Part shown: positions 5,061 through 60,384 of the stretch, piece by piece
How positions within the stretch are numbered: position 1 is the stretch's first letter
How the letters are laid out: each line of letters starts with the position of its first letter
DNA from: Podarcis gaigeae
Taxonomy: Eukaryota
Assembly (NCBI GenBank): GCA_964106915.2
Contig: OZ066915.1
Length of the DNA: 64,000 bases
Strand: one strand, 5' to 3'
Notes under the pieces: model-generated
Database searches by the model: none
Seen by the model: only the letters and a program-made list of their open reading frames with translations
What the model was told of the DNA's origin: nothing
Program-made: the position numbers and the translations under genes

Positions 5061-5291
5061 CAGTGGTACCTCGGGTTAAGAACTTAATTTGTTCTGGAGG
5101 TCCGTTCTTAACCTGAAACTGTTCTTAAGCTGAGGTACCACTTTACCTAATGGGGCCTCCCGCTGCCGCCGCACGATTTCTGTTCTCATCCTGAAGCAAA
5201 GTTCTTAACCCAAGGTACTATTTCTGGGTTAGCTGAGTCTGTAACCTGAAGTGTCTGTAACCTGAAGCGTCTGTAACCCGAGGTACCACTG
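5061..5291. mobile_element. Tc1/mariner-type MITE
   Basis: TIRs cagtggtacctcgggtta...taacccgaggtaccactg flanked by TA on both sides (5059-5060, 5292-5293). Confidence 0.85.
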
Positions 5292-6295: not shown

Positions 6296-9200
6296 ATGGC
6301 AACAGCACAGGCTTCTCATGTGACCTGTGACCCTGGCAATTGTCTTTTTGATCCTTACTCTCTGGATTCTGAGCCTGACGACGGCAGCATGGGCAGCGTG
6401 GGCAGCCTAGTAGAGAAACAGGATTTCTTGCCAACTGCTCCAGGAGGTCTGCGCGGCATGCGTCAGCCAGATGGGCTGCTCCGGAAAGGAATGTCACAGC
6501 GTGAAGTTTTTGGCTACTTGCATGGGGGCAAGCGGGACACCCGGGCTGAGAAGAAGCACCAGTCGTCTGGAGGTGGCTTTAAACGGGACTATGAGAGTGA
6601 CCGGGAGAACCAGTCCCCCGAGCGGTATTTCCGGGACAATCAACGGGCAGCTGATTTCTCCAAAAGCTCCTTGCCTGAACGTGGACGCTTTGACAAGGTG
6701 AGCAAGCTGGGGGTGTGGTTTTAGGAAGGAAGAGAGAGTTTCTTGGCAGAGACTGATTGGAAGGGGAATGGGGTGGGGCTTCTTGGCATAAATCCAATGC
6801 ATTTTCCCACCAGTAGTCCTACAGTATTTCTGATGTGTTGAAACAGAAAGCCTTTAGCTGTACATAGGGTCCAGCAGTGTGTGATGTGGGGATATTGGAT
6901 TAATGGGGTGTTTTGGAGGTCAGGAACTTGCAGTCCTCCAGGTGTTGTTGGACTCTAACTCCCATTAGCCAAAGCAAACGGTCAGGGCTGTTGAGAGCTG
7001 TAATCAAACAATATATGGGGGGGGGCACAGGTTCTCCACCACTGCATTGGAGCATAGGAGGAGCTAATGGACCCGGAGGGACCTAGATCTAAGGAGATGC
7101 TGTTTATAGTGGACAGAACAACTAGATTGGCTACTGTTGCTGTACTGTTGCTATCGGTGGACCCTAGGATACACTTGGCCTCATGGCCACCAAATTCCAC
7201 ATCGTCTCCAGTATGCTGCTGCTGCTGGCCAGGGAGTGCCCAGCCTCCTTGGTCAAAGAAGTAGGCTGCCCTGGCCTGAAACTTGTTCTTCTTTAAGGCC
7301 TATGCCATTTATCTTCAACATCTGAACGAGGAAGTAGTTGAGGGGCGATCAGTAGGGAAAACCAATCTATATAACAGGGCAGCAACCCTTTTTTAGACCA
7401 AGGGCTACAATCCTTTTGGGGCTACAGGCCAGTGTTGGGTGGGGCCAGAGGCAGAAGTGGGCAGAGCAACAACAAATGTGAATTTTACTTTTGTGCAGGT
7501 GGCTAGTTTCCAGGTGGCAAGCGACAAGTATTATCAATTTCAATCAAGCACACGCTGCAGCCAAGCAAAAACATTCAGGGCAGTATTTCCCACCCCCAAT
7601 AACCATCACTTTATTAATGCAGCAAAATGAGTACAGTGGTACCTTGGGTTAATTACTTAATTCGTTCCGGAGGTCTGTTCTTAACCTGAAACTGTTCTTA
7701 ACCTGAAGCACCACTTTAGCTAATGGGGCCTCCCGCTGCCGCCGGAGCACGATTTCTGTTCTCATCCTGAAGCAAAGTTATTAAACCAAAGTACTATTTC
7801 TGGGTTAGCAGAGTCTGTAACCTGAAGTGTATGTAACCTGAAGCATATGTAACCCAAGGTACCACTGTACTCCTAAGGCATGTGCAAATGGATCTGCATT
7901 GTCTGAGAAAATAGTCTTCTCTGATGAGGGAGTGCACCTCATCATCTGTTTGGTATCTTCTGAGCTCCGAGTGTTGGCAACGCTGATGAACGAACAGTAG
8001 ACAACAACCCAGGCTCACCACTTTAGCTTCAGCATCAAGTCACACATACTGAAAATCATTCCCAGTAGATTCATGTAGTCTGGTGTGGGGTCTTCCAGGA
8101 TAGGGTTGTTCTCTGTGGACAGAGGTTTGTATCTGAGAATGTGATTTGGCCACTGTGGGTTCATTATGTTGTTACTGGCCATTGTGCATTGCCTATGGCT
8201 ACTCTGAACAGCCCCCATCGCAACACTAGCTTCCGCTTCTCTCACTACTCAGAGCAGTATTAAAAGAAATAATTTCATGAGCAGAACTACTTCTGCTTGC
8301 ACAATGGGACTCCCACCCCCCACCATGTGAGGTGTGCGCCTCCCCAGATTTGCTCCGGAGTGTTGGGGCAACCCCTAAATCAGATTTGGGGGACAGGGTG
8401 GAGGGAGAAGAGGGGGAGATTGTTGCACAGGGAGAATTCCGTGTGCTGATGGAATGTTCACCTGAGCACCATATTGAATTCCACCATAGCGCTATATTGA
8501 ATTCCATCCTTGAGGCAGGTCCAGTAGCGGGTGTGGCTGAGGAAGGGTGTGTGGCTTGAGAAGAGTCCCAGTGGCCAGATAAGAGACCTGGAGGACCACA
8601 GTTGCCCCCTAGGCCTGCTGTTTTGCACCCCTGCTATATAGAACCAACTCTATAAATTGTGGCAAGAACACGTTGACCTCCTTCCATCCCTGCTTTGCTC
8701 ATGGGCTGATGTACCTGCTAATGGCTCTTGTGTTCCTTCCAGTGTCGGATAAGACCCTCTGCCTTCAAGGTGGTGTCTGGGAAGAGCTTGTTGTCCATGC
8801 CGGGGCTGTCATCAGCCAAAGGCCAGAAGCTGTCCAAGAGCAACGGGAGCCTGCACACGCTGCTGACCCAGAGCAGCACCAGCAGCTCCTCGCAACGCGG
8901 CCCTCTCCGCAGCCACCTGCTGCACACCATCAGCCTGGACGAGAGCACCAACTCTATCCAAAGCTTCCCTACCTACACTCCCCGTTTCAAACCTGCTCCA
9001 ACCCAGCTCAGTGCTTCCGTAGGCCACATCAACCACATTGGCGGTTCCTTAGACAGGGCTTCTCGGGGGCCACGGGACCCTTTGGCTGTAGACAAAGCAC
9101 CTCTGTCTTGCAAGAGCCTCAGCCGCCTGCAGAGCTCTGGGGAACCACCCCCTCCGTATGAACCCACATACTCCTTGGAAGATGTGGTGAAGCAGCTCGA

Positions 9201-12881: not shown

Positions 12882-13685
12882 CTTACAACACAAGGCCCAC
12901 ACAACTGGAGCTTCTAAGACAGGCACAGCATGAGGACCAGCGGCAGAGCAAACCGATCGGGCACCTGGGGTAGCGCGCGTGCCCTGTGCCTGCGGGGCAG
13001 GGCCAGCCAGGACAGGACACTCTGCAGTGCCTCTGAGGAGTCTGCCTGCCTCCTCCCACTCAGCCATCCTACAGCTGAGGGGGAGGTGTGGGCAGACCGT
13101 TTCGGGTAGCATGGAGCCTGCGGGTGCCCAAGCCACCGCGTCACTCCCAGGCCCCGTAGTGAGTGCTGCCTGGCATTTTGTGTCTCCCCTCAGTGGTGAC
13201 ACCAGGGCCCACCCATCCCACCGCACCCCTCCCCCCCCTCCGCTGAGAATGTTGAGAGCCAACCTACCTCAGCATGAGCCTTGCCCTGTAGGATTTGTTT
13301 ACTCTCCATCTGGCTTCTCACCACCAGGGGCGGAAGAATGACAAAAGAGGGGGGTGACAAAATGTGGGGTGGCACTCACCACGGGGCCTGCAGTGTGCCC
13401 GACCCACACGTCTCTCCTGGGAGTAACAAAGTGGCTTGGGCGCCCACAGGCTCCACGCTACCCCAAACGGTCTGCCTGCCACCTCCCCCTCAGCTGTAGG
13501 GCGGCTGAGTGGGAGGAGGCAGGCAGACTCCTTGGAGGCCCCGCGGAGTGTCCTGCTCCGGCTGGTGGTGCCCCTGGGCACAGGGCATGTGCGCTGCCCC
13601 AGGCACCCGATTGGCTTGCTCCGCTGCTGGTCCTCATGCTGTGCCTGTCTTAGAAGCTCCAGTTGTGTGTGCCTTGTATTGTAAG
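12882..13685. repeat. Long inverted repeat (arms ~12882-13191 and ~13347-13685) in N4BP3 3' UTR, built on a GC-rich transposon-like element
   Basis: 12882 cttacaacacaaggcccacacaactggagcttctaagacaggcacagcatgaggac... is the reverse complement of ...gtcctcatgctgtgcctgtcttagaagctccagttgtgtgtgccttgtattgtaag ending at 13685. Complementarity continues inward for ~300 bp. Confidence 0.9.
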
Positions 13686-24964: not shown

Positions 24965-26594
24965 TAATGGCATGCCTTGGAGATGTGCTGGTGAAAATAG
25001 GCTATTGGGATAATGCTTGATGGAAGGTGGCATATGCTGGCAGGAATGGTCTTCTGCTGTGAACAGTATTAGCTGCTAAACGCTGGGAACTGACTGTAGC
25101 TCACTGGGCCAGAGGAGAGCAATCTTATGTCTACTGTAAGCCAAGCCACATTATTCTGTACTCCTCGCAACATACAACTTCCTAGGATTCTTCCTGGGAG
25201 CGTTAACTGGCAGTGATCCTTCCTAGCAAGATGGTTTACACTCTCCCCATGCATAGCTCTACTTGTTGAGATACAGCTTGTATCACAAATTGTACACAGA
25301 GAGCTGTTGCTATTTTTAAAACACTTCAAGATAAATCTAGGTATTTTTTTCTGTTTCAATCCATCAGTTGGGGGGGGGGGAGGAGTCTTAGAGCTGTCTT
25401 TCTCTTCCCACTGCCCAATATGTGCTTTTGACAATGGGAAGGATGGAATTTAAGTTGGGAGAAGTATGCTGGAAACTTGGCTTACTGCTATTTTGAAGAA
25501 AAGTTTAAAATAGGTTGGTGAAAATATTTGAATCAACAAAGGTGGAGTTTGGGCCCTCTGTGTACTAATACACAGTGTAGCTCTTCAAAAAACAAGGGAT
25601 AAGTAATAAGGTGTATTGTTTCCTAATGAAAATAACACAAGTGAAAAACTGGGACAGCACTGTATTGAAGAAATTCATACTTTATGACAGGTACATGATA
25701 GCAGCTTGCTGCTTTTGAGTGTTAGAAAGCCTAGCTAAGCTGCTTTATCTATTGTGAAGGAGTAGAAAATGGAGAAAGTACCATGACTTTGTGCAGGTTG
25801 AGAAAGCTGGTAGAATAGTAACTATCATTGAGACATCTTTAAAAGTAGGTATACAGTCTATTTTATTCAAGAAATTTGAAGTAATCCTTTCCCCTGTTGC
25901 TGACAATTCACAGCATTTGCAAGTACTCATTAAGGTTACAGATACACATCAGAACCTGACTAAGTGAACTATGTTAGGCAATGGTCCTAAAAATGCTCTG
26001 TAATATGGGAGAATGGGGGTATGGATAATTAACAGGGATCTTGAATCTGATTTAGAGATTTGAACTCCCTTGGAACGAGACCCGAAAGTAATATTAAAAC
26101 AACTGGCAGAGTTTAAATCTGTGTTGCTTGAAGTCTGAACTTAGCTTTGAAAGCTGAGCCCATTTTTATTAGAACGGTGAGGGTAAATAGTTTAAAGCTG
26201 TAGGCGCAGGAGTTGGTGCCTACAAGTTGCACTTTAATTGGATTTTTGTTGTTAAAAAAAATGCAGTAGTTTGGAGTATCAGTCTGGAATAACAGTGGAT
26301 GTGAAGATCTGCACTAGCCTGGAGGGAGACGTTTAAAGATACTTTTATGATGCCACACTGCATGTATTCTTAGTTTTTCTTCCTCCGAGACACCAGGAAC
26401 TGTTAAACCCAGGATAGAGATGGATGGCATGGAAATACAGCTAAATAAATTTCTTTTCAGCAAACTTGTGTATGGTTTTTGGTGTTGATATATTTAGAAC
26501 GAAAAAGAAACATTTTCCTTAAAGTAGACACGTTCTTGACAATATTGCTTTTAAAGTCTCCCAGCAGAGCAAAACTCTTACACAAGTGTAGTAG

Positions 26595-26890
26595 TAGTAA
26601 TAATAATTTATTATTATTTATACCCCGCCCATCTGGCTGGGTTTCCCCATTCACTCTGGGTGGCTTCCAACAAAATATTAAAATACAACAGTCCATCAAA
26701 CATTAAAGGCTTCCCTAAACGGCTGCCTTCAGATGTCTTCTAAAAGTCTGGTAGATGTTTTTCTTTGATATCTGGTGGGTGGGCATTCCACAGGGCAGGT
26801 GCCACTACCGAGAAGGCCCTCTGCCTGGTTCCCTGTAACTTGGCTTCTTGCAGCGAGGGAACCACCAGAAGGCCCTTGCCGCTTGACTTA
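26595..26890 (-). mobile_element. L2-type LINE 3' end
   Basis: (TAA/ATT)n tail, then ataccccgcccatctggctgggtttcccc... Minus strand encodes RAFSVVAPALWNA. Same family as 31371-31787. Confidence 0.75.
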
Positions 26891-31370: not shown

Positions 31371-31416
<46 letters not shown>

Positions 31417-34400
31417 TGTACCCCGCCCATCTGGCTGGGTTTCCCCAGCCACTCTGGGCAGCTTCCAACAAAGATTAAAAATACATTAAAATGTCACACA
31501 TTAAAAACTTCCCTCAACAGGCCTGCCTTCAGATGTCTTCTGAATGTCAGGTAGTTGTTTATCGCTTTGACATCTGCTGGAAGGGCGTTCCACAGGGTGG
31601 GCGCCACTACCGAGAAGGCCCTCTGCCTGTTTCCCTGTAGCTTTGCTTCTCGCAATGAGGGAACCGCCAGAAGGCCCTCAGTGCTGGACCTCAGCGCCTG
31701 GGCAGAACGATGGGGGTGGAGACACTCCTTCAGGTATATTGGGCCAAGGCCGTTTAGGGCTTTAAAGGTCAACACCAGCACTTTGAATGCATATTGTTTA
31801 ACTGTATTACATACTTCATAAAGAACCCTCAATTGATTTGTGGTGGCTCTTATTCCAAACACAAGAAGTAATTGAATGCCCTTTGTGATCCTAACTTTGC
31901 ATGTGTTGGAAAAATTGTTAAAAACCGAATTGTAGGATCGCAAGACTAGGAAGCATACCAAAAACCTACTGAGAAGGGATTTTCTAGACATTAGCCAGTG
32001 AGCTTTGACATATAGCCCAGCTACATATTACATAGCCAACTATGCTAAAATGATCTTGTGTCAGATAATTTAAAAATATAATTCTAAATATATAATCAAC
32101 AATATACGCTGGTGAAAAAAGGAGAGAAATGGGCTTTAATAGAAAATTAAGCAGGTATCTACATCTGCACTGTGTCATTATTCATATGTAGTAGTAGTTC
32201 AGATGATTGTTAACACCAAATAGTAATACTGACAACTGGATAATTTGGGCTTCCAAAGAAAAACTGATTTAGAAGGATGAAGGTGTTCTTTTATACAGAG
32301 GTTCAAGATGGGGGAAGCTGTTCTTGGATACCATGTGACTATCCCTAAGCGTCTCAGAGCTGAACTTGGGGTTATTTTCTGGCAAGCTGTTAATAGTTAG
32401 GAGGCTTTCATGTTTCTGCTTGCCAGTGTTCTGTTATCCTCTTGCAAGTGTATTTAGCATCATCCTTACAGTCATGGAACTGCAAGTACAAAACCTACAA
32501 GGCAGGGTGGTGCACATCTTAGCTGCACAGCAGCAAAATCAACCACTCTTTCTAGCTCCAAATATGGGCTACAGGTGGTTAGACTTGTAGAAGTCAGTTG
32601 GCCCATAACCTGTTATATTGGGCCCACCATCTGTTGTTGATATTACACCACACTTTGACAAGTGCAAAGAGCAGAGTATGCACAGCTCCAGCAGAGTCAT
32701 CCAGCAGAACTTCAAAGTCTTCTTACCTTCCAGTAGTCAGTATTTTCCAGAGTTCCCTGTTAAGAAAACTCCTTTACCATACAGCATGTAACATCCACCA
32801 ACATGATAAAAGCTCAGTCATGTAAATCCTGCTGAATCCAACCTTGGCTTTATAACTACCACTGCACATACACACATTGCTAGAGAAAGGGGAGGGGTAA
32901 GACGTGCTATAGGCCTTTGACCTTTGACTGTTTCTAACCACCCACTTGCTGCTGGGTTTTTCTTTAAACAAAATCTAGATGTGGGAGATGGGTTTCTCAA
33001 AACATGGTCCAAGCACTTAGTGCAATTTCACCCATTTTATTCTAAGTTACACTAACACAGAAGAGCATAGGAGATTTGGCGGGAGGGTGTGTGGAATAGA
33101 CCTCCTGTTTTTTTTCTGAAAAGAAGGGAATGAAGGAAAGTTTTCCCCAATTTTTGTGGATCTTCAAATAGGCACCCTAACTACCACAATGTGGGGGAGG
33201 AGGGTTACTTAAAATGAGCTCTAGTTATGGGGCACAATGTAACATAGTCATTTTCAGAAAGTATTGTATTATCTGTTGGTCAAAGTTTTCCAGTCCAATC
33301 AACTGGTGACCAAACCTTCCCCACTATATTTTGCCCAGCAAAGGAGGGAAGATCTTGAAACTTTCTCCTTTTTCTCTAGGGTTTCTGTCAGCAGAGCCAT
33401 CAAACCCTTTGCAGAGCCAGGCCGCCCACCTGATTGGTTTTCCCAAAAGGTAGGGTGCTTAAAATTCACATCATAATAGGCTTTCATTTCACCTATGGGG
33501 AATACCTGTTCAGGGGACTCCCTGTAAGTATCTATTGCATGTTAAATGTGTAAAACATGTTTAAAATCGTTTGCCAGGAAAGTATACTTCCTAGCTCACA
33601 TATCTGGAAACAGCTTTAATATGTGGAATGTGTGTTATATAAACTACCCCAAGTTTTTGTCTCAACTCAGATTCTTAGTACTGTCTGTTGTGATTTATCT
33701 TCTGAAATCTGTATGCACTTTTATTATCTTTTTTTTTAGCATTGTGCATCACAATATTCTGAGCTTCTGGAGACCACAGAAACCCCAAAGTGAGTTCAAA
33801 GGCCAAACCACCTCTTTGAGTGGGGTGGGACAGTAAACTACTGCGTTATAGACTATTTGAGAACTGAAGAGGAATGATAGTTTGAACACAACATACGAAA
33901 GTACCTGAAACGCTGCTTCCTGACCATCTTTCTTTTTAAGTCTGGCTCCCAGAAATTATAGTAACTTGCATATTTTACCCTAAGCTAAGTTGTTTGGTTA
34001 CAAAGAAAGATAATTCACTGGCAGAACAATCCAAACCCTGGCTGGGTAGTCACTAAACATGAAAGAAGGGCACAGCCACGGTCTCATCTAGTTCCATCCA
34101 GACCCATAGCTCATGCTGGCCAGGTGGGGGGCAGACAGAATGCTGCCGGAGCAGTCAGGCCCATTGCCATCAAATGACAGCAATGAGGCCAACTTGGAAT
34201 CCAGTGGATTTTGTATTAGCTCAGGCTCTCATGCCCACCTCCAGAATGCTGCATTCTGGTTTGGGGAGTAGATGTGTTTCTAATATTTTTGTAACCTGTG
34301 CTTTACTTGAGGGTGAGTTCGACATCAGTCCCCGGGAAAGAGCAGTAGGATGTTTAAATCTGCAAAAGTCACTCAGCTTCAGGAGCCAAACACTTTTTCT

Positions 34401-46400: not shown

Positions 46401-49400
46401 TACAATGATCCGATTCTTGGCAGAAGTGGGGAGAACAGCTAGTTTAGTTCTTTTTAAATATATTTTTAGATTGTATTAATAAATTTAATTTCTTCGGTAA
46501 CGTTTTCCTGGTGTTTCATTGACAGGCCAATGGATTTATCAACCATTAAGAAGAATATTGAGAATGGGCTAATCCGGACCACAGCAGAGTTCCAACGTGA
46601 TATCATGCTGATGTTCCAAAATGCTGTCATGTACAACAGCTCTGACCATGATGTATACCACATGGCTGTGGAAATGCAGCGAGATGTCTTGGAGCAGATT
46701 CAGGTAAAGCCACAGTCGGAAGTTTTCAGTGGGGCACTGTTCTTATCCTGATGTTGTATGGGAAGCACTGAGTACACTAGAGAAGATGCCTGCTGCTTGC
46801 GGCATCTTTATTGTCTCATTAGCTTTTAAGATTCTCTTAGAGAGAAACTGGTTAAACCTGATGTCTGACCATCCCTGCATGATTTACCATTCCTACGATC
46901 AATCAAAAGGAATGCAGGCTTAGAAACAAACCAGTAAACTGAAGTTACCTCCATTGTTTCTGTAGCAAGCCACTAAACTTGCATTCATGTTGAGAACCTT
47001 AATAGCTATTATGTGGTTTCTTGCAGCAATTTCTAGCCACACAGTTGATCATGCAGACGTCTGAGTCTGGGATCAGTGCAAAAAGTCTGCGTGGACGAGA
47101 TTCCACTCGGAAACAAGATGCTTCAGAGAAGGTGGGGGCTAACAAGAACCTTTGATTTGTTTGGGGGAGGTTGTTTGAGCCATTTGATAGATGCATCCAT
47201 TTGAGGGGGGGAGTAGAGAAGCTTGGACTCCTTCATTTAGAAGTCTCTTTCGGAATAGAAGTGGGCTTACCCTTTCGGTTTAATTAGTAACAAAGATGGC
47301 TGTGGCAGTCCCTCTCCCTTGCCCCCATATCCTGCATTTTTCATTATCTAGTACACTGAAAAATTAATTTGTCCTTGAAGTTGAGGATTGCTACCACATG
47401 AGGAGGGCTGGTATTTCAGTGTGTGAAGAGCAGCTCTATTCTGTTATCTGAGTGGTGGGTTAGAGACAGAGAAGTCACTTTTCCAAAACTTGAAGTCAGG
47501 AGCCCAATCGAGACATGCTTTTTTGGTTTAGACCAGGGGTTCTCAAACTTTCTACCCCCAGCACCAATTTGAGATGATTGAACATTATTGAGGTGAACCA
47601 GTCAGAAAGTAGTGGCAGAGGGAGGAAGAGCTTGCCATAATTGGCTAGCAAATTGCTGTCCTTGTTGCAAGGAGTTCCATAGCTCACCTTTCCTCAAGCT
47701 AAGTACAAACATTAGTCTGCAAGTATTGCGGCTGTTTTCCCATGTTAAGCCAGATTCACTGATTCAGATATTCTAAGTGGAGAAGTCTTTTTCTTTTATA
47801 TTTTTCCCTTTCCACCTGCACCTGCATTTTAAAGAGGTATTACCCATCTCTTCTTATTCTCCTATTCTCCTTTCACACTCAACTTGTACTTATTTTCCCA
47901 CCCACCCACCAACCCAAACTGCCTGTTTCATTCCTCTTCTCTGGTCCTTTTACATTCACTTTTCCCTATAATATCTTTCCTTTCTTAGACCCTTCTTTTT
48001 TATTCCCAGTTTGTTTATTTTCTTATTAGTCTCAATAATAATAATAACAATAAATATTAATATTTTATCTTTCTAACTTTCTTCAACACTATTCTGTGCC
48101 TTTTCCCTGAGAGGAGGGAGACCTTCTTTACCTCCTCCCCACCTGAACTTTCCTGCCTTCTGATTAGAATTTGCTGGTGCTGTCTTTGGTCCAGCCAAAA
48201 GGCTATAGTCCAGTTAGGAGGCAGGGAGGCAAGTGAGGAAGAACAGGGGAGGCTGTGACACTGAGAATGCTGGAAAGTGGCCCAAGGCCCTCTGGTGGGT
48301 CCCAGACCATGGTTTGAGAAACAGTGGCTTAGACTGCCACGTTGTCTTGTCTTCTTGTCTTCCTGTGTGTAGAGGTGTATATTTCCATCCAATTCATTTG
48401 CTACTTCGGTTTGTCTTTTAACAGGACAGTGTCCCCATGGGCTCCCCTGCCTTCCTCCTTTCTCTCTTTGTAAGTACTTAATGATTACGCTTTCAGCAGC
48501 ACAATAACAATATGGGGACATTGTCTGCATGATGAGGGGCTTTCTAAAATTACAATCAGACTATGGTCATGTCTGGGTTGCTGAAATATAAGAAGTGTCT
48601 CTACCCCCTTTTGCTTCAGTGTATTGTTTCGTGATTGGATGTCTGGGGGAAAGTGGGGGACTTTTTGTTATTTCTGGCTGCAGGCTGCTCACTTCCTTTC
48701 ATTTCTTCAGTCTGTCTCCTTCCATTCTGGCTTTGGGTAGGTCACAAGACTCTACATTTAAAAAGGCAACACTAGCTTAGAGGGTAATGTTACGCACTAA
48801 AGTCCACATTGCAGAGTAATATCCTTGGCTTGCGGCTCTTCCCTTGTTTTCCCTGCATCCCTATGTTGGATTTAATTATTCACATCTAAAGCTTGGTTCC
48901 TGCCTTCATAGCTCACAGGACTCTCAGAGCAGCTTTCTGTAAGACGTAACACAAGAATAAAATTGTGAAATTATTCTGAGAATTGCAGAGGAAAAGATCC
49001 CTAGGAAGGGTTGTCTCAATAACAGCTTCCCCGGCTGTAAAGAGAAATCTAGTTACATATGAGCTGCTGTTTCATACATACTTCTTGCAACAGTTTGTGT
49101 TGAAGCCTCCTCCAAACTATGGGATAGTTCTAGACAGTGTACATTGCAAGAAGACTAAAATACAGTGTTTTGTTTCCATGAATGCAGCCATGGTCCTATA
49201 GTAAGAAAGCTGCTGTTCTGCCCAAAGATGTGTTTTGGCAGTTTCATCCTCCACCCAAGGGAATGCGGGTAGGGATTGTTTTCTAATGCCTATTTATTAA
49301 AGACAGAGAAGCATGAGGAAAGGCAGCCAGATGGAGTGGGCAGCAGATGGAAGTGATCTCTCTAGCTTCCGTACATTCACAGAGAGCCGCTGTGAGGACA

Positions 49401-49829
49401 TGCTAGGGAGATAGTGGCAGGGTCACCCACCTGGAAGAGAACTTCTGTAAAGAGCAGCGGTTGATCAGGTATGTTAGCCAGCATCCTTTCTGCCCACTGA
49501 AAGAAATGACTTGGAACTTTTCACATGGGGCAAACACATCATCCCATATGCCAATGCCAAAAGTCCATTTTTCCCTTTCCCCTTTTGAGTTCACATGCAA
49601 ACTCTGTAGCTGGTTTCATAAGGTAGTCCTCTGTGTTTTAGGAAGGCAAGTAGCACTGCCTGTCTGCGCAGTCAGTCTTTCCTGGCAACACAGATGGCAA
49701 CCAGCAGTCTTTCCTTTTTCACAGTCTTGCTAATAACAGTGCCTTCCCTTCTCTTTGCATTTTGATTAGGATGGGGGAACCAGAGGGCGGCGTTGTGCCA
49801 TTGAAGCAGATATGAAGATGAAGAAATGA
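30527..49829 (+). CDS. BRD8: Bromodomain-containing protein 8, short (single-bromodomain) isoform, ~941 aa
   Basis: Shared exons: 30527-30545, 31202-31298, 33380-33449, 33740-33789, 34746-34868, 34975-35055, 35491-35555, 36061-36197, 36552-36767, 38195-38339, 40280-40489, 40919-41199, 41562-41996, 42685-42778, 42900-42946, 44140-44345, 44722-44814, 46191-46259, 46526-46703, 47027-47131. Then 48425-48469 (DSVPMGSPAFLLSLF) and 49770-49829 (DGGTRGRRCAIEADMKMKK*). N-terminus MAAGTGKHKLLSAGPTEPWSIREKLCLASSVMRSGDQNW; bromodomain 1 includes PMDLSTIKKNIENGLIRTTAEFQRDIMLMFQNAVMYN. AATAAA at 49938 and 50133. Confidence 0.95.
31371..31787 (-). mobile_element. L2-type LINE 3' end with (ATT)n microsatellite tail
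   Basis: (ATT)n run at ~31371-31415. Minus-strand peptide FKVLVLTFKALNGLGPIYLKE...RAFSVVAPTLWNALP...FRRHLK matches the L2 ORF2 C-terminus. Confidence 0.85.
38749..38862. mobile_element. Penelope-like retroelement terminal remnant with degenerate minimal hammerhead ribozyme
   Basis: Inverted pair 38749-38780 / 38798-38829. 38781 gtat-CTGAAGA-actgtgcatgtacac-aAAA-gctc-atac has type I hammerhead topology and is followed by aacttagttggtctttaaggtgctac. Confidence 0.55.
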
Positions 49830-50183
49830 TGCTGAAGATAAGAAACAGCCCAGTCTTTGGTGTCTGGACCCAGGAAGCAAATGAAAACCTTCCTGATCCT
49901 GAGGATGAAATGGACAGGGAAGGGCTGACCTGTCAGTAATAAAGAATATCTATCATCCTGGAATGTGTAACCAGGGTAATCCCATAAACAAGAGAGCAGC
50001 CCCACTGCCTGTTGTAGGGCAGCAGTATTGGGGTCCTATTAGTGTCCTCATATTAGCTAGCAACTGGTGGCTAGTACGTACTGTAATGTGAAGTGTACAG
50101 ATTTTTTGTATTTGTGGAGTGTAAATGTGTATAATAAACTGTCGTAGAGAATCCTGTAGAATAAGGTGTGCTGGCTGCATTGA

Positions 50184-51573
50184 TTTATTTACATTACCAC
50201 CCTCTCTAAGAAAAACTTGTTTGTAAAGACCTACACATACTGTGAATCAAGATTTTGACTACATAGTCCAAAATGGCAAATCCATCAGCTAGATCAGACC
50301 TGCCAAGCAATTTCAAACAGGTCTGTTAACTCCCATCTTCCAGCCCAGGTGCTGAAAAAATAGTTGCCTCTGCTCTTCAGAGATCAGTTGCTGAAGAGCA
50401 AAAGGAAACAATTGTATTTTCCATGGCAGTTTTGGTCTTTCTGGAGGAGTTTGAGCTAGTCTATCAAACCCAGTTCTGTGATAGATGAGTTTCTACCTGT
50501 CTCTGGGTGCAGGATAGTCACGTCAACATTGGCCATGGCCCTCTGCTGGCATGTGGTAGTCCAGTACTGTCTCTTTTCATCGGCAGAGGTGTGCATGCAG
50601 GGTGTGCTATGTGTGCCCAGACACACCCTAATGTTTCAAGACATGAGGTTATAGCAAGGAGGAGAGAGCATGGAACAGCTATGGGGGGAGAGACTAAGGC
50701 AGAAGTGGGGAGGAGGGAAGCAGAAAGAGAGACAGAATAAAAAGCCTAGAATGGACCTGCAGTTTCCTCCTTACTTACTGTTGCGGCTGGAGCTAAGTAT
50801 CCCACCATTGCTTACAGATACAGATGCAGGCAGAAGCTGCTGCCTTTTTTCTTTTGCCTGTGTCTGTCTCATGGCTCCACCACTTGCCTCCTTCCTAGGA
50901 CAGGAAGATGATGAAACCATAATCTGTTTTGGTCAATTTGGTTTAACACATCTGTTTAAAGGTCATGACATTTCATTATCACGGCAGCAAAAATTTGGTA
51001 TTTTTTGTTAATAAAAAAGTTACATTTTAGTTTCTTCAGTTTATTTATTTATCAAACAATGTCCTTTATGATTATGTATTCAATAAATATTCATCCTTGG
51101 GGGAAAAGCAAAAACCCTGCATACACACCCTCGTTAAATGTGCTGCACACAGCTATGCTCATTGGTAGAGACTCTGCAAGGCAGGGATGGGGAGTCTGGC
51201 TTTCCAGATGATGTTGAACTCTTGCCAGCTCTGACTATTGGTCATACTGACTGCACTTGATAGAAGTTGGAGTCTAACAACAGGATCTCCATGCCTGATC
51301 CAATATCGTGGATAAGTTTCCCTTCCCAGCCCTGCTACTTAAGAACTCTTTCTCCCTTGCCCACTTTTCAAACTGGAGACGCCAAAGACTGAAACTATGA
51401 TTGTTTAGGTCTTATGGGGGCAGCCAGCAGCTGGTTTATTTACATTACCACACGCTCTCTAAGAAAAACTTGTTTGTAAAGACCTACACATACTGTGAAT
51501 CAGTGTTTTGACTACATAGTCCAGAATGGCAAATCCATCAGCTAGATCAAAACTGTCAAGCAATTTCAAACAG
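50184..51573 (+). repeat. Dispersed direct duplication, ~138 bp (50184-50320 and 51435-51573)
   Basis: Both copies read tttatttacattacca..ctctctaagaaaaacttgtttgtaaagacctacacatactgtgaatca...aagcaatttcaaacag. Confidence 0.9.
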
Positions 51574-53353
51574 TGGTTCATACCTTCTGGGCCCTACATG
51601 TCATTGCTGGCTGCGGCCAGAGACAAACATGCTTAGAGAAATGGATGTGATTCTTCACCTTTCTACAATAGGCTACATTACAACTGTGTGGAAGTTTCTA
51701 TACACCTACACTTGTCCTCCATACAAGCAAGCAAGACACATTTTAACCCAGCAAAAGCAGTCAAGGAGGGCACAGGAAAATAATACAATATTTATATCAC
51801 ACCACTCTGGGTGGCTTCCAACACATAACATAATAAAACGTTAATAACAACAATCTGATCCAATATTTAAAAAATCACAACTTTAAAATAGACAACCTAT
51901 CAAACAGCAACAATCCATCAGAATCTAATAATACACAGTAAAATTAAACAACAGCAAATAATAATTAAACAGTTCACACATATCACAATAAAGAATATAC
52001 CAATCTATAATCAATAAAAACATCAGCAAATCACAATGCATGAAAACCATAAAACATACAAAACCATGTAAAAGGGTCAAATTGAAAAACAGACACACAA
52101 ATTATAAAACCACACACACACAAACATCCCTGAAATCCTCTCTTCCGAGCTGCTGCTGTTCTCAAAGTCACAGTCTGGGAAAGGCTGTGTGGGGCAGATG
52201 GAAACACCAGTGCCTGAGTAGGAACAGAAAACCCATGAGGGATGTGGGCTGAGGAGGGGAAGTGGCTGAGGGAGAGTCCTGAGAGTTGGATAGAGCCCTG
52301 GGGAGACCCACCTAAGGCTCCTCAACCTCAGCTTCACCACCACTTCTTTCAACCATGATATCTCAGCAAACACTTCAATGTGTTGCTTCAAAACTTATGT
52401 CTACTAAAATTTATATTGTCACCAATGGGAGTAAAATAAGAAACCATCATAATGTTTTAAGACATCCTCAGGTTTTGTCAGCAAAAACGACTTACTGATT
52501 TTCTCCATCCTGAAGACTCTTTCAGGGATAATCAAAAGAATAACTGGATAATCACCAGTTAAGTGATCCCAGCATAAGCAATACAATTTCCCCAGGGTGG
52601 TGTTAACGGAAGGCTTCCATGACTTTCACCTGCATTCTCATGCAGCATCTTTATCTCCTCCTCCTTTAAACCTAGATAAAATTTTGAGATCTTGACTTCT
52701 AGACACATTGGATTGTAATAAGGCAGTGGCTTCCAACTCTTTTGCAAAATTGTTCTATCAATGGATTGTAGTTCTTGTTAGAAAGGATCTGCCTTTTCTA
52801 TTCGCCTTACATTGAGAAATCCACCTCTCCTCCTTTACCTATTATGCAGGAACATTGGAAGCTGCCTTGTACCATTCTAGCCAATTAGTCCACCTAGATC
52901 AGTACAGTCTGTGTTGATTGGCAGTGGCTCTTAAGGGTTTCAGGCAAAGGACATTCCTACCCATACTTGGAGATACCAGGGTTTGATCCTGGTCCCTTCT
53001 GCAGGCAAAGCAGGTGCTCTGCCATTGAGCCACTTCTGGGTTGCCCTGTTCCCAATCCCCACTGCTAGCAAACCTGGTGATATAACCCAAGGCTTCAGCA
53101 ACCCACTCCTGGCTCACCATTTGGATTGCTGTGGGACTTGGCAGATGTGCAGTGCCACATAGACAATTAGAAGCTAGGGATAATTTTTGGTTAAAGTTCT
53201 TTCAAGTCACAGCTGAGAGCATTACCACAATAGATTGTATATTTCAGGGTTTGAACTTGGCTCCTTTACTACTTGCTCGAACACCTGATCAGATCTGAAG
53301 CTAGCACGTGAGCGAGTGACAAACCCTCTTCCCATCTCGTGTACCTCTTGTAG

Positions 53354-56300
53354 ATGGGTCACGTGTGGACCTGGCTGGAGTCTAAAGAAGAATTCTTCAC
53401 GGAGTCTGAGAAGAGCAGCAGCTGCCAGTCTCCCCAGGGCTCCCCAGGCTCTAGCTCAGATCTTGACCTGGAACTAGGCTGCTGGAGAAAGGGGGAAGAA
53501 ACTGCTGAGGAGGAGGTCGAGGAGAGCAGCAGCCAAGAGGAGGAGAGTCAGCTGGGAACAAGTGGTCCTCTGGCATGGGAAGGTGCCAGCAGAGGGGACC
53601 AAGAAGAGGCTGGGAGGTACAAGCAGGATGCTATCTTGAGGTTCCTGTCAGAGGTATGGCTGCTGGTGGGTGCAGTTGAGGAAAAGGTGGTGGTGGGTGA
53701 CCTTGTCAGTTAGAGGGGACTGCTGAAAAAATAGTGCTCCCAGTCAGCGTGGCAGACTGGCAAATTTCTGTATGCGGTTGGGTAAAGGTACCTGGAGATA
53801 GAGGTTCAGGATAAATGTGTTGACAAGGGTTGGTGCCTGCCCTCTAATTCAAAAGTGGAAGGGTGTCTTTGCCCAGATGCACTTCTATTCACACGCCCAT
53901 GGAGTGTTATTCTCTGTTTTGGCTGTGTCTTTATCCTATGCCCGTTAGGACAAAAGATGTGTTGAATGGACAGATCTGCATATAGTTTTGTAATGTCACT
54001 AATTCTGTAAAGGTCTTAAGCTGTTAGCCTGTCATCCTCTCTTCCAGGTAACTCATTTGATGGAGCCCCTTTGCATTGGCAGCACATACCTGGCCCAGGG
54101 TCCACAGGCACTTTGCAGTGCTGGGGAGCTGCCTGGAAGGGGATTGCTGGATCATGAAGGAGACATAAAGGGATCTGTCACCCACCAAGAGGAGGAAGTG
54201 GCTAAAGGAAGTCAGCTTCAGGTTCTGAAAAAGAGAGCTACTTCCCAGGGAAGGGGAAAGTTGGCATTTCAGGTCTCAGAAGAGTTGCCAGTTATGAACT
54301 GGGAAGCAGAAGGAATGGAAGAGCAACAGGATCTGTGTGAGGAGTCAGGAGACTCTCAGATTCAGGATGACAATCCTGATGGGGGTTTGGGAAAGAAGAT
54401 GCTGCATAGCCTTGTGGAAAGTGCAGGAGAAACAGATGAAGATGACTACTCATTAGAGCTTACAAATGATACTTCCTTCAGTTGGAGAACACTGAAGGAT
54501 GGGGTGCCACAAAACATAGAGGTAAGTGGTGAAACTCTCACAAGTCGAGTTTTAGGACTAGCACCAAGGGAAAGATGAAATCTGTGAGCTAGCCATGATT
54601 GTTGGTGGGAAGGGGGAAAGTGAGAACAAGTTGCTTGGGAGGGCTTAGCTGCGTTTTCAGGTGGGGTGGAGAAAAGATGGACCCACCCAGTTAGAATCCT
54701 TGTATCTTGGCATCATGGGCATCTGGCCCTGACTTTGATATTCCAATTGTTACTTTGCCAATTCAGCTCATGCCTATTTTGTGTTCACCAGGAAGTGGCT
54801 GCAGAACGCACTGAAGAACAAGCTGAAGACTGGAAAGATTGTGACTTCCACCTGAGTTACAGCAACGATGACTCCAGTCCCTATGGAACGCCCTTAATGA
54901 GCTCTCCTACCACAAGTACAGCTTCTTTGCCTTTGTGAGTAATGGTGGCACAAAGCTCAGAAATGGCATCATACCTGCTCTTCAGGCTTAGTAATTTAAG
55001 TGTAGCCAGTCATCTTGCCATGCAATCATGCACAGGTCTACTCAGAAGTAAACCCCACTGAGTTATGTGGGCCTGGCTCCCAGCTTAAGTTTATATCTAG
55101 GGTTGCAGCCTAAAGCTCCCTCTAGAAGAGGCGTGGGGAACTCTTTGTTAGGAAATAACTGGGGGATACTAGTTAATCCAGATACTCCATGTGTGGAGGA
55201 AACTACAAAAGAAAACAAAAAACATGGGGCTGACTCACTCTGTAGTCAAAAGGGCCCCCAGCAGAGTTTAAAACTAAAATATATGCGGTGTTTGCAAAGC
55301 GTGGCAAATATATGATGTTAGACCTTTAAATGTCCCAGTATTAAGCACTGGGTACTAATTGTGTTCCCCTGTCTCTACCACTCTCAGAGTTAATAGAGCA
55401 CAAACTTTCGTAAGTTTAAATGCTTTACTTATATTAAGTAAAGGTCACACTCATGCATCAATCAATGCTACAGCAAAAACAACACAGGTAAAAACTTATT
55501 GAGTACAAAATACGAAAAGGGTACCTTCAAGCATGGAGTTTGAACAGGGAGCGCCAGCCTCATGTGTCTGGTCAGTTGCATGGTTCAAAAAGAAGAGGGA
55601 GAGAGGAGCAGGAAACAAACAATACTTCCCCCCTCCCTGAAGGTGAGGGGGTGAATCTTAGCTGTGCCTTCTCTAGAAATTTACAGTTCTGTGCTCCTTA
55701 ACCCCTTCATTTACTAACTTTCATTGGTAAGTTGTACAAATTTCTTTTTCCATCAGGGGCTAACAAACCTTAGCTGCACCACTGGTCCAATAACACATTT
55801 CATCCCACCAATTTCTTTTTCCTGATGGGAATAAATCTGTTCTGTTTCTTATCTGTATAGGATGCGGCTGAGCCAAGATGACCCTCTCCAGCAGCATTTG
55901 CTTTTCAAGAAAACTCTGTTGTCCATCTGGAAGATGGTGGCTGGTCATAGGTGTGTTATTAAGGTTTATGGAGGCGAAGAGGACTAAGGGTGCATCCACA
56001 GTAGCACATCTTCATGGCTGCTGGTTACTAACCATTCAAGAGCTGGTGCAGGTCACACAGCATCTTGCGATTTGTCTGTGTCTGCATGGCACTTCCTGTG
56101 AGGGTCCTCTTCTCCCCCCAATTTAAGAGATGCAACCTTTTGCACAGTCTGGTCTAGACTGAAATCTCCTGCTGTCCCACTTCCTGACGCTGCAGTTTTC
56201 CTCTTTCAAATTGTTTCATTTCTTTGAGTGGTGTAACGTTGCATCTATACATCCAGTAACCTAGGCACCTTGCTTATTGCATTTACTGCATCTGCTAATT

Positions 56301-59136
56301 TTTTTTAAATAGCAGAAATCGTATCAGACTTGCTTCATGATCCTAAAATCCAATACACTCCTGAGATTTTCACCCTGGGGTTTTTTTTTGGCAAGCAGCA
56401 TCAAATTTATAAAGGTGTATTTGGGTAAACAGGAGCGACTGCCCGTATCTGGTGGTTATTAAGAGGGCAAACTATGTGTGTAAGGTGAGGGTGAGGGTTG
56501 AAATTTAAGAGGAGGAAATGTATAAATAGAGGAAATGTGCGACAATTTAGTACCGATACAGTGAGAGTAAACCTAAGACTTTAAAACCTGTGTGGAAAGA
56601 CCAGAGTTGGATACTGAGGGAGTCAAAGCTCGAACAGAAAAATGTTGTGGGTCAAGCTCAGAGAGAACTGGTGAAAATATGGGGGAAGACACTGGGATCC
56701 CAGGACTGAAGCCCAGAGGAAATGGAGTGTCCTATATGTATTAGCGTTAGGAATGTTGAAAGCAACCTTATACCAAATCAGACCCTTTGTCCCTCTAGCT
56801 TAGCACTGTCTACTCTGACTGGCAGCTATCCTCCAGATTTCAGACTAGGGACATTTTCAGTCTTGTCTGGAGACTGAACTGCAATCATTGCAATCATTGC
56901 AACCAAAGCAGATGCTCTTCCACTGAGCTACAGCCGAAGCTAGCACGTGAGCCAGTGACAAACCCTCTTCCCATCTCATGTACCTCTTGTAGATGGGTCA
57001 CGTGTGGACCTGGCTGGAATCCAAAGAAGAATTCTTCACGGAGTCTGAGTGATTTCTTAGCCAATTGACTTGCATCTGCCAATCACTGTCATCCCCACCA
57101 GTCATTCTGAGATACAGAAAAGGGTGTGGCATGAAGTCCGGCGGTGAGCCAAGGGATTGTGTAATGCACATGGGAAAGCCTATTTAGCTCTCTTCATCTC
57201 TGTCTCCCCATTAGATACAGCGGCCCCTTTCTGAAGCCCGTTTCCGAGAAGCAGGCTCCTGGTTACAAAGATGTGGTGAAAAGGTCAGCTGAAAAAGTGG
57301 AGGGAGAGCTGGTATGGAGAATAAGGCTGTGAGAGTGGTACAAGTCACAACAACTTCCATGGTTGCAGTTCCAGCCGAATTGTCCAATGCCAGAGTCTAT
57401 GATATGTTATGGGATCAGTTTAAGCTTATGCAGTCAAGTTGATATGGATAAGATGCTGGTGGCAATACGTCTGCCCACATGCCCTCTTCACCCCTGCCCT
57501 CCTAGCTGCTTAAATCTACCAAAGGGGGTTTGATTCCTTGGGGCCAAGGCATGGAGAGAACATTTTATTGTGTGATGGGGTGGTTCCAGCTGCCTTGAAA
57601 GAGATGGTGGTGTGAACACTCTTGAAGAAACTGGCCCTGGGTCCTTCGGACTAGAATAACTACCATCCAGTTGCAGCTACCAATTTCTTGGTGGCAGAGA
57701 GAGTAGTGGCAGGGCAGCTGCAAGCATTATTGGAGGACACAGAGCATTTAAACCCATTCCAATCTGGGTTCAGGCTTGACTATGGGACCGAGTCATCCTT
57801 GGCCACCTTTACAGTGAGCAGGGCAAGGGTAGTGCAGCTTTGTTCCTGTTTTTCTGCCTCTCTGCTGTTTTTGATACCAGTGTCCATATAGCCTCTTGGA
57901 CTGGCTCCATGGAATGAGAAATGGGGGTTCCAGTCCTACCTACATTGAGAGAGTACTTTTTGGCCCCTTTGGTGGTTAAATTAAGGGATGCTGCCAGGCA
58001 CTATTTTATCCCCTATGCCACTGAATACCTATATGAAGCTGTTGGGAAGCGGTCATTAGGCATTTTGGGGCCAGATGCCATCAGTATACTTATGACACTC
58101 AGCTCTATTTCTCCATAACATCTGGATCAGGAGAAGCCTGCCTGGATGCAGTGGTGGGATTGATGAGGTCCGTGAGTCAGTCTCCCAGTCCCTCCCCTTA
58201 CCTACCCAGTAATTATTATTGATTGAAAAGCAGTGAGGTAGAGGATGGGATTTGAATTGAGACTTCAGTACTGGGGTAGATTCCCTTAACATGAATCACT
58301 CCCCCAGAGGCTATTGTTTAGATCAGTATTTCCCAACCTTGTGCCTCCAGCTGTTTTTGAACTACAACTCCCATCATCCCTGACTAGCAAGACCAGTGGC
58401 AAGGGATGATGGGAATTGTAGTCCAAAAACAGCTGGAGGCACAAGGTTGGGAAACACTGGTTTAGATGAGAAAAGACAATCACCTGTATTGTACCCATCT
58501 TCCTATCTACCCACTCTGTGGATAATAGCAGCTTTAGTGTGTGATTTATGTATTAAGCAGTATGAGTATGTGAAGGGTTAAAGCCACCCCCAGAATCATC
58601 ATAGACCTGTTCCAAATTGAGGGAAGGGGCTGATTTCAACCAAAGAAAAGTATGTTGGAAGATTAAATCCACTGTATAACACAGCCAGTAATTGCCACCA
58701 TCCACTGATGGAGGAACAGAAATTCTTACTCTAAGGATTGGATATTTCCTTTGAGAGCTGTCTGGGCTACCAAGTTAAAATTCTGCTAGTTTCCAATCTA
58801 TAACCGCCCAAATCCTTCTCTGAGAGACAATGTAATTTTTTTCTTAACAACTTGGCCAAAATGACAGACAATTGCAACTCACTTCTCCCTCCTTTCTGAA
58901 GACCAGCCGATCTTTCCTCCATAAAGAGGAGCCTCTCCAAGGGCCGCATTCAGAATATGGTGCAGTTCCAGCGGGATCTCATGCTGATGTTCCAGAATGC
59001 CATCATGTACAATAATGCCAACCACCATATACATCGCATTGCTCTGGAGATGCAACGAGAAGTCCTGGAGCAGCTTCAGATGCTGGGCGAGGCACTCCTG
59101 TGCTCAGAGGAAATGCAGGGCTTTGTGAGAAGGTGA
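53354..59136 (+). CDS. BRD8: BRD8 long-isoform 3' exons encoding the second bromodomain (spliced from 47131; full ORF ~1343 aa)
   Basis: Exons 53354-53653 (MGHVWTWL...LRFLSE), 54048-54521 (VTHLMEPLCI...), 54792-54934, 55861-55950 (SQDDPLQQHLLFKKTLLSIWKMVAGHR), 57215-57283 (YSGPFLKPVSEKQAPGYKDVVKR) and 58902-59136 (PADLSSIKRSLSKGRIQNMVQFQRDLMLMFQNAIMYN...). Phases are consistent and the peptide matches the C-terminal part of the long human BRD8 isoform as recalled. Confidence 0.88.
56745..56935 (-). mobile_element. tRNA-derived squamate SINE (Squam3-like)
   Basis: Ends agcagatgctcttccactgagctacagcc, the reverse complement of a tRNA-like head. Related copies at ~30830-31015, 52845-53035, 59390-59550 and 63465-63610 (+). 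Confidence 0.6.
56936..57049 (+). repeat. 114-bp duplicate of BRD8 acceptor plus exon start (source 53297-53410)
   Basis: 4 mismatches over 114 bp. The copy keeps the polypyrimidine tract, AG (56991-56992) and ATG GGT CAC GTG TGG..., and is followed directly by TGA (57050-57052). Confidence 0.92.
57420..58175 (+). mobile_element. Degenerate L2/CR1 LINE reverse-transcriptase fragment
   Basis: Peptide remnants NNYHPV..., ERVVAGQLQALLEDTEHLNPFQSGFRLDYGTES (FQSGFR..GTE motif) and a YxDD-like region near 58085. Confidence 0.75.
58324..58459. mobile_element. Palindromic hAT-type MITE with 8-bp TSD
   Basis: Near-perfect hairpin cagtatttcccaaccttgtgcctccagctgtttttg...caaaaacagctggaggcacaaggttgggaaacactg; gtttagat is duplicated at 58316-58323 and 58460-58467. 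Older relatives at ~5410, 5930, 6920, 10780, 29470 and 37390. Confidence 0.85.
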
Positions 59137-60384
59137 GAGGATTGTGTTCAAAGGGAATCAACCACATCAGCCTCCCCTTTGGGAACAAATGAGTGGAACA
59201 AATGAGTGGAAATCCAACTATTTATTCACAGGATGTTATTGGGTAAGGCATCTCTGCTTGTGTCTCCCAAACATGAGTGCTATTCATCTCAAGGTGAAAG
59301 CCTCTTCCTTAGATTTCCCAATAATGAGTAGAATTTTCTGCCAACCTGCAAGGCATATAGATTAAAAATTCACTCAGCTCCCTAAGCAGGAACATAGGAA
59401 ACTGCCTTATATCAAGTCAGGCCATTGGTCTGCCTAGCTTATTATTGTCTATGTTGACGGACAGTGGCCCTCCAAGATGTCAGACAGGGGTCTCTACCAG
59501 CCCTGCCTGGAGATAGATGCCAGGGATTGAACCTGGTACTTTCTGTGGCCCTTCGTAATGAGGTTTATGTAGGCATAGATACAGGCTATTCTGGAACATG
59601 ATAAATTCCTAGGGAACTGGGAGATTTACTGTCTTTCTTTCAATTTATAGATGTTGAGGAGCCAGAAGAATCAGGCTAGTCCAGAAGCCGGATTTCAACC
59701 TGGATACCTTCAGTCTGGCTCTAGGGAAAAGTTGTTAAGATAACCACAGTTCAGCAGTCTGATGCCCCTCCACTTCCTTAAGAGCTTTTGTTATCTATTA
59801 TATGTCTCAAAGTATTAGTCATAACAGGTTTATATGTATCAGAAATGTCAGTTTTTAGACTACAGATACTATGATTTTTCCTGTTGTTTATTCCTGGAAA
59901 CGTGTTGTCTTGTCCTCACCCAGGAGTCTCAGTCGAAGTTTAATGGATGAAAAAGTTAAAGAACCAACAAGCTATAGCACAGGCAAGACTTGTTGTCCCA
60001 CAAAGCTAAGCCCCATTTTTGGTAGCAGGCACCAACAAGGGGCTGTAGAACGTACATTTCCAGAGAATAAATGTTATGTTGTGTATAACCATTCCAGAAC
60101 AGTTCTGTTCTAGATTCTGAAAGATTTTTTAAAAATCTGTATTGGCTTCCTTTTTAGAAAATTCTAAAACTGAAAGAGCATGCAGTTATCTGCAAACATT
60201 ATTTTGGAGGCAAAAAAACCCCCCAAAACCCTACATGATGCCACTGTTAGTACCCAAGCAAGGTAGCTTTGTTGGTTTCAACACTGGCACAAATTAACTC
60301 TATTCATGCCTCCCTAGCAGAACACTTCTCTCTGAAGTTGCATCCATTGTACTCACCTTTACCAGTTACCAAGTAGTTATCACT

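What the first reader, a model, noticed from the sequence alone, without database searches (positions are those of the whole stretch)
56936..57052. Duplicated BRD8 splice acceptor creates a candidate decoy or poison exon inside bromodomain 2
Seen: 56936-57049 copies 53297-53410 with 4 mismatches (two intronic, two synonymous: GAG>GAA, TCT>TCC). It holds the complete 3' splice site and first 19 codons of the exon that opens the long isoform, and sits between two BD2 exons right against a SINE end. Splicing from the 47131 (or 48469) donor gives a third C-terminus, MGHVWTWLESKEEFFTESE*, with TGA at 57050. Splicing from the 55950 donor shifts frame and stops about 25 codons later, truncating BD2. 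A usable donor (cg|gtgagc) follows at 57144. Inference: a young templated insertion that could tune the ratio of one- to two-bromodomain BRD8, or trigger NMD.
Basis: partly seen in the sequence, partly recalled or inferred. Interest (0 to 1): 0.7.

Follow-up and report, generated by a model that had tools for sequence, protein, structure and literature searches.

The report
Stray splice-site copy in lizard BRD8
A 114-base piece covering the start of one exon of the chromatin gene BRD8 has been copied into a later intron in some wall-lizard-like species, most likely as a DNA-repair accident that the cell largely ignores; nothing found here shows that it is spliced or that it regulates the gene.

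Summary
The copy is real: 56936-57049 matches 53297-53410 at 110 of 114 bases, and only these two places hold it in the genome. Contigs of a second sample and two related organisms carry it; one contig of a fourth organism has other sequence there. It has no target-site duplication or poly(A) and abuts a SINE's 5' head, so it is best read as a local templated patch at a DNA break. A second such local copy lies 5 kb upstream. The functional reading has no support. The two synonymous differences are not selection on the copy: one arose in the source gene, one varies within the species. The copied acceptor scores below the true one and below 8 other AGs in its intron on a crude matrix. Every product would be an NMD target, and the site lies downstream of the short/long choice, so it cannot raise the one-bromodomain form. 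RNA use is untested. This scan noted like cases in other genomes (SMG1, ELMOD3, XPA). Ordinary; low interest.

The parts
56936..57049 (+). The inserted copy (114 nt) of 53297-53410
   Evidence: 110 of 114 identical; two places in the genome; present in contigs of X3, X6, X7
56936..56992 (+). Copied intron end: candidate branch motif at -35, pyrimidine tract, AG at 56991-56992; the letter at 56978 adds a yUnAy match at -15
   Evidence: branch point inferred from motif only
56993..57049 (+). Copied first 19 codons of the exon that opens the BD2 half
57050..57052 (+). TGA in the frame of donors 47131 and 48469
57066..57068 (+). TGA in the shifted frame reached from donor 55950; 75 nt before 57143 and 215 nt before 57283
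57124..57149 (+). Two weak candidate donors (GT at 57124 and 57144); would leave introns of 91 and 71 nt
   Evidence: matrix scores 5.4 and 4.3 against 2.6-11.4 for 25 real donors
53297..53410 (+). Template: intron end and start of the source exon
53354..53653 (+). Source exon; opens the BD2-containing half, begins with ATG
   Evidence: spliced alignment to P0037; homologues in squamates at 56-99%
55861..55950 (+). BD2 exon upstream of the host intron, phase-2 donor
57215..57283 (+). BD2 exon with the true acceptor of the host intron, 222 nt after the copied one
58902..59136 (+). BD2 exon to the stop codon
56766..56935 (-). Old tRNA-type SINE; its 5' head abuts the copy. Family name (Squam3-like) is recalled, not from a call
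   Evidence: A box at 56930 on the minus strand; 71% match to another copy at 59405-59513; very high contig depth
47027..47131 (+). Exon after BD1, phase-0 donor
48425..48469 (+). 45-nt exon, phase-0 donor; precedes the source exon in 9 of 10 fused protein models
49770..49830 (+). Coding part of the last exon of the short, one-bromodomain form; AATAAA at 49938, 50133, 50736, 51010, 51082 follow

Best explanation
A 114-base copy of a BRD8 intron end and exon start sits in a later intron of the same gene; it likely arose once, as a patch copied from 3.6 kb upstream during repair of a DNA break, and is likely skipped by the spliceosome apart from noise that nonsense-mediated decay would remove. 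Shown: the copy, its two-place distribution, its presence in three organisms, a different sequence at this place in one contig of a fourth, no target-site duplication, poly(A) or shared junction letters beyond one base, an intact BD2 frame. Inferred: a break beside the SINE head, loss of about 200 bases, copying from the nearby template in the same orientation, rejoining by end-joining; the true acceptor at 57215 wins because it is stronger and paired with its own donor 69 nt on, while the copy has lost its donor (53653) and has only weak ones too close to 57215; any use from 55950 shifts the frame and is degraded; the copy then drifts neutrally.
For: Origin: X10 (organism F) has one contig unbroken over the template and another that fits only from 57049, with 199 unlike letters before it; X3, X6, X7 break at the template exactly where a shared repeat predicts. 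No TSD, no A run, flanks unlike the template's flanks, and no diverged homology beyond the ends apart from a 34-nt SINE head: the class 2 pattern of PMC5110952, whose experimental inserts were 73-414 bp. A second same-strand local copy (50181-50320 to 51432-51573, 92%) exists in this locus with two places in the genome, so the process needs no splice function; 390 of 11659 possible 114-nt templates within 6 kb (3%) would hold an acceptor. Neutrality: 4 differences in 114 is compatible with the 1.8-2.4% distance to F (P of 4 or more 0.15-0.29; 0.06-0.08 against D and E). The change at 53383 is in the source of organism A and 57019 varies between two samples of A, so 'both synonymous' shows no selection on the copy. 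Splicing: copy 4.9, source 5.4, true acceptor 6.3-7.3; 8 other AGs in the host intron score higher; 133 of 1579 intronic AGs of the gene score as high (copy included), 74 of the 133 with an equal or better donor within 50-250 nt. BD2 is still conserved: 119-120 of 120 residues against 5 of 5 lacertid proteins compared, the linker 292-309 of 316. Copied exon borders in amphioxus did not disturb splicing (PMC3087553, section 16).
Against: No RNA was examined, so 'skipped' is an inference. The matrix rests on 26 acceptors and 25 donors of this one gene and ignores branch points and enhancers; the copy is not a random AG but carries the real upstream 57 nt and first 57 exon nt of a site that is used, so factors that open the source may open the copy. 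It lies upstream of the true acceptor. The letter at 56978 adds a branch-like motif and differs from the source in D and E too. It has been kept in 3 of the 4 runs laid. The F evidence is one contig at about 60% of the neighbouring depth, possibly one haplotype, and with no outgroup beyond F gain is not formally told from loss. A conserved BD2 does not exclude partial use.
Confidence: 0.75

Rival explanations
1. Leaky or regulated poison acceptor: where the BD2 half is transcribed (testis in human), donor 55950 is joined to 56993 in a sizeable share of transcripts, the frame shifts, and NMD lowers the amount of BD2-containing protein.
For: The copy holds a proven acceptor with its flanks; it lies upstream of the true acceptor; the stop at 57066 is 75 or 215 nt before the next junction, so it meets the 50-55 nt rule (established knowledge); kept in organisms A, D, E; the human two-bromodomain form is testis-specific (PMC11462934 and PMC10139981, passages), so splicing here is likely regulated.
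Against: Lower score than the true acceptor, weak donors with a 71-91 nt remaining intron; no sign of constraint on the copy; absent from the F contig, so not needed by a close relative.
Confidence: 0.17
2. Third C-terminus: donor 47131 or 48469 splices to 56993 and a one-bromodomain protein with a 19-residue new tail is made.
For: Both donors are phase 0 and the frame is open for 19 codons.
Against: Needs skipping of the short last exon and four further exons, among them the stronger and nearer source acceptor; TGA 57050 lies 91 nt or more before later junctions, an NMD target; 0 of 38 proteins held end so (weak, as only 15 of 50 members of the main cluster were listed).
Confidence: 0.02
3. 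Other origin, same lack of function: the patch was reverse-transcribed from pre-mRNA, or the two SINE heads (53000-53034 and 56898-56935) guided a template switch followed by a deletion, or the copy is older and was replaced in F.
For: The copy is intron plus exon on the sense strand of a region likely transcribed in the germ line; PMC5110952 argues for RNA templates; a like SINE head on the same strand lies 263 nt before the template.
Against: A template 3.6 kb away in cis, and a second local copy 1.25 kb from its template, fit DNA copying better than capture of a free RNA (inference); the 263 nt between SINE head and template are not in the copy nor in the F contig's unlike letters; 4 such heads occur in the 64 kb.
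Confidence: 0.2
4. Assembly artefact.
For: Near-identical short duplication beside a repeat.
Against: Four differences from the template; an independent sample's contig crosses the right junction; contig ends in three runs match the repeat.
Confidence: 0.01

Closest known systems
Class 2 templated sequence insertions (TSI/TSIP; PMC5110952, parts 1-2 of 4 of the text read)
   Same: Short copy of unique genomic sequence, donor intact, size in the 73-414 bp range, no TSD, no poly(A), loss of sequence at the recipient site.
   Different: Those were defined with donors from distant regions; here the donor is 3.6 kb away in the same gene. Here it is shared between organisms, not a human polymorphism.
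Templated micro-insertions at human deletion breakpoints copied from a few kb away (Abyzov et al. 2015; recalled, paper not held)
   Same: As recalled: deletion with an inserted stretch copied from a site 2-6 kb away.
   Different: Unverified here; those inserts are recalled as mostly shorter.
Amphioxus 'mirages', duplicated intron-exon borders (PMC3087553, abstract and section 16 read)
   Same: Copy of an intron 3' end plus exon start inside the gene, keeps the AG; reported not to interfere with regular splicing.
   Different: Mirages are tandem minisatellite arrays at the border itself; this is a single, non-tandem copy moved four exons downstream.
Internal duplication activating latent splice sites (review PMC3443670, passages read)
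   Same: Intragenic duplication supplies new splice signals as raw material.
   Different: No new intron or exon is shown here; the duplication is not tandem.
Poison exons (AS-NMD) of splicing and chromatin regulators (established knowledge, recalled)
   Same: Use would add a premature stop over 50 nt before a junction.
   Different: Those are shown to be spliced, respond to NMD block and are usually deeply conserved; this one is lineage-limited and unshown.

Membership tests
Class 2 templated sequence insertion | Insert is a copy of unique sequence, donor intact | tested here: met
Class 2 templated sequence insertion | No target-site duplication, no poly(A) tail | tested here: met
   left flank rests on the assembly alone
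Class 2 templated sequence insertion | End-joining marks: deletion, microhomology or added bases at the recipient | tested here: inconclusive
   F contig has 199 unlike letters in place of the copy and fits from 57049 (one shared base); the letters were not shown
Class 2 templated sequence insertion | [quoted passage not shown] | tested here: not met
   donor 3639 nt upstream in the same gene; so it works like one, but is a local variant
Class 2 templated sequence insertion | Empty site is the ancestral state | tested here: inconclusive
   one contig of F, no outgroup
Retrotransposon-mediated transduction / class 1 TSIP | TSD, poly(A), insert at the element's 3' end | tested here: not met
   no TSD or A run; insert touches the 5' head of a minus-strand SINE
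Mirage (duplicated exon border) | Copy spans an intron-exon border and keeps the splice signal | tested here: met
Mirage (duplicated exon border) | Tandem array at the border | tested here: not met
   single copy 3.6 kb away
Poison exon (AS-NMD) | Premature stop over 50-55 nt before a later junction if used | tested here: met
   75 and 215 nt
Poison exon (AS-NMD) | Junction seen in RNA | not tested
   no RNA data were examined
Poison exon (AS-NMD) | Rises on NMD block; regulated | not testable with these tools
   needs an experiment
Poison exon (AS-NMD) | Conserved beyond neutral intron | tested here: inconclusive
   differences compatible with neutral drift, little power; other sequence in the F contig

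The most novel reading that the evidence does not exclude
One lizard lineage has gained, by a single repair event, a self-matching brake on the testis BRD8 form: the factors that open the acceptor at 53354 also open its copy at 56993, so a set share of BD2 transcripts is sent to NMD. It would be a poison exon caught at birth, with close relatives with and without it for comparison.
Probability: 0.06. Interest if true: 0.6.

Novelty: new member of a known kind. Interest (0 to 1): 0.15.

Why it matters
As read here it matters little: one more tolerated copy of an exon border, and a marker that separates organisms A, D, E from F. If RNA showed real use, it would be a rare dated origin of an AS-NMD switch, in a gene whose two-bromodomain form is testis-specific in human and of open function (PMC11462934, passages), with a natural with/without comparison.

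Tried and rejected
The left junction (56935/56936) is bridged by no listed contig in 4 of 4 runs, all long contigs ending at 56933 in the SINE; this says nothing for or against. 4 of the 20 runs holding part of the stretch were laid; B, C, G and the RNA-guessed runs were not. 'Both coding differences are synonymous' as a sign of selection (chance 0.057): rejected after placing the changes. SINE-driven transduction: rejected. 'The copy cuts off the SINE head': weak only; other copies tend to go on about 7 nt (table 7, agreement 0.4), but the three genomic heads fetched differ from each other there. A protein-level look for the shifted-frame tail in the large collection was not obtained; among the 38 proteins held none ends in either predicted tail. 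Literature: 'BRD8'+'lizard' 4 papers, 'brd8dc' 1 paper, 'BRD8'+'isoform'+'second bromodomain' 6 papers, seen as listings only, none on this copy; pseudoexon and partial-duplication searches gave no matching case in the 15 listed each. The library lacks most subscription papers; supplements were not opened. MaxEntScan and SpliceAI were not available.

Full report
Observation. Window 56936-57049 matches 53297-53410 at 110 of 114 bases with sharp ends. The differences are at copy/source 56953/53314, 56978/53339, 57019/53380 and 57022/53383. A search of the whole genome finds the stretch at these two places only.

Gene and host. The source exon's best matches are BRD8 proteins of Podarcis (97-99%), Zootoca and Lacerta, so the host is a lacertid lizard. 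Spliced alignment to P0037 gives 26 exons, an open frame of 1358 codons, and 25 GT-AG introns. After BD1 the gene either ends in the exon at 49770 (short form) or goes on at 53354 through five further exons to a second bromodomain. The copy lies in the 1264-nt intron 55951-57214, 222 nt before the true acceptor. In human the two-bromodomain form is testis-specific and BD2's role is open (PMC11462934, PMC10139981; passages). In 13 of the 23 hits the protein begins at or next to the ATG of the source exon, mostly filed as a separate 'BRD8-like' gene, so 'the exon that opens the long isoform' may also open an independent transcript; not resolved here.

Is it real, and who has it. Contigs of four DNA runs were laid on 53000-57500 (4 of the 20 runs that hold part of the stretch). 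X3, a second sample of the window's organism A, has a contig from 56992 to 57500, crossing the right junction. X6 (D) and X7 (E) have contigs that begin at 57020 and run into the flank (30 letters of the copy, one short of the tool's bar for bridging), and their contigs over the template end at 53369 and restart at 53381. These are the ends predicted for a repeat that stops at 53410. X10 (F) differs: one contig runs unbroken over the template, and the contig over the recipient fits only from 57049, with 199 unlike letters before it. So the copy is in 3 of 4 runs, and one F contig holds other sequence. That contig has depth 44 against 73 beside it and may be one haplotype; absence from all of F is not shown, and no outgroup was laid.

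Where the differences arose. Contig ends tell which sites differ between source and copy. In D and E both places carry the same letter at 53383/57022; the source contigs are trimmed by three letters against the window and the copy contigs are not, so both carry the copy's letter, and the change is in the source gene of A. In X3 both places agree at 53380/57019 and the source matches the window, so the copy varies there within A. The two synonymous differences (chance 0.057 if both were in a neutral copy) therefore show no selection on the copy's frame. The difference at 53339/56978 is shared with D and E; which side changed is not known. Four differences in 114 fit the 1.8-2.4% distance to F (P 0.15-0.29) and are at the edge for D and E (1.3-1.4%, P 0.06-0.08).

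How it arose. There is no target-site duplication, no A run, and the flanks of recipient and template are unlike; at most one base is shared at the right junction. The SINE beside it is on the minus strand with its A box at 56930, so the copy touches the head, not the tail, which rules out transduction. Replacement of about 200 bases by a 114-base copy is the pattern of a break repaired with a templated patch: class 2 in PMC5110952 (parts 1-2 of 4 read), except that the donor is local. A report of inserts templated 2-6 kb from human deletion breakpoints is recalled only (not held). The same locus has a second local copy with no splice signal at stake, 50181-50320 to 51432-51573, 92% alike and at two places in the genome. 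Of all 114-nt templates within 6 kb, 390 of 11659 would hold an acceptor; catching one is uncommon per event but expected many times in a genome (inference).

Would it be spliced. No RNA was examined, so this is inference. A matrix from the gene's own 26 acceptors and 25 donors (crude; no branch point or enhancer terms) gives the copy 4.9, the source 5.4 (sixth weakest of 26) and the true acceptor 6.3 left out or 7.3 included. Eight other AGs in the host intron score above the copy. Over the gene's 23,877 intron bases (which include the short form's last exon), 133 of 1579 AGs score as high, the copy included, and 74 of these have a donor as good as 57144 within 50-250 nt. The copy lost the source's own strong donor (8.2). 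GT 57144 scores 4.3, above 3 of 25 real donors, and leaves 71 nt, against a shortest real intron of 106; GT 57124 scores 5.4 and leaves 91 nt. Against this, the copy carries the real context of a used site, lies first in the intron's 3' part, and gains a branch-like motif at -15; some use cannot be excluded.

What use would do. Every product stops 75 nt or more before a later junction and would be an NMD target by the 50-55 nt rule (established knowledge). The short/long choice is made upstream, with AATAAA signals at 49938-51082, so the copy can only subtract from BD2 transcripts, not add one-bromodomain protein. BD2 remains nearly invariant (119-120 of 120 against 5 lacertid proteins; 98-114 of 119-120 against 7 other squamates). 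None of 38 proteins held ends in either predicted tail, a weak test as only 15 of 50 cluster members were listed.

Comparison. It works like a class 2 templated insertion but fails the 'distant donor' feature; it resembles amphioxus mirages, reported not to interfere with regular splicing (PMC3087553, section 16), but is not tandem; it meets only the stop-position feature of a poison exon. No paper on this copy turned up (listings seen). Earlier notes of this scan describe like cases in other genomes; they gave the leads to PMC3087553 and PMC3443670 and are not counted as support.

Verdict. Observation confirmed; interpretation partly supported. Best reading: a lineage-limited local repair patch that happened to include an acceptor, likely silent (0.75). 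Sizeable poison use 0.17, of which a regulated, selected switch about 0.06. Interest 0.15.

Noticed in passing
window 50181-50320 and 51432-51573: A second short local duplication, same strand, 92% alike over 142 nt, from the 3' untranslated region of the short form to 1.25 kb downstream; only these two places in the genome.
   Followed up: partly
window 53354-59136: 13 of 23 squamate homologues begin at or next to the ATG of this exon, mostly as separate 'BRD8-like' genes of about 245-442 residues. The BD2 half may be an independent transcript as well as, or instead of, a long BRD8 isoform.
   Followed up: partly
window 54934 (donor), proteins P0006-P0008, P0026, P0029, P0031, P0035, P0036: 8 of 8 long Lacerta agilis models held end right at this donor and lack BD2 (my notebook entry says 7, the count is 8). 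Assembly problem, intron read-through or real loss: not checked.
   Followed up: no
window 53000-53034: A SINE head of the same kind and strand as the one beside the copy lies 263 nt before the template (82% over 34 nt); 4 such heads in the window.
   Followed up: partly
window 5059-5293 / 7632-7869 and 26589-26876 / 31386-31678: Further same-strand pairs (91% over 238 nt; 82% over 293 nt) and an inverted pair 12882-13151 / 13416-13685 (86%); not checked whether mobile elements or local copies.
   Followed up: no
window 49770-49826 and 56993-57049: The short form's tail and the tail the copy would give are both 19 residues long; taken as coincidence.
   Followed up: no
window 56880-56897: A 9-nt tandem doubling inside the SINE head, absent from X3, X7 and X10 but not listed as absent in X6 (table 4).
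   Followed up: no
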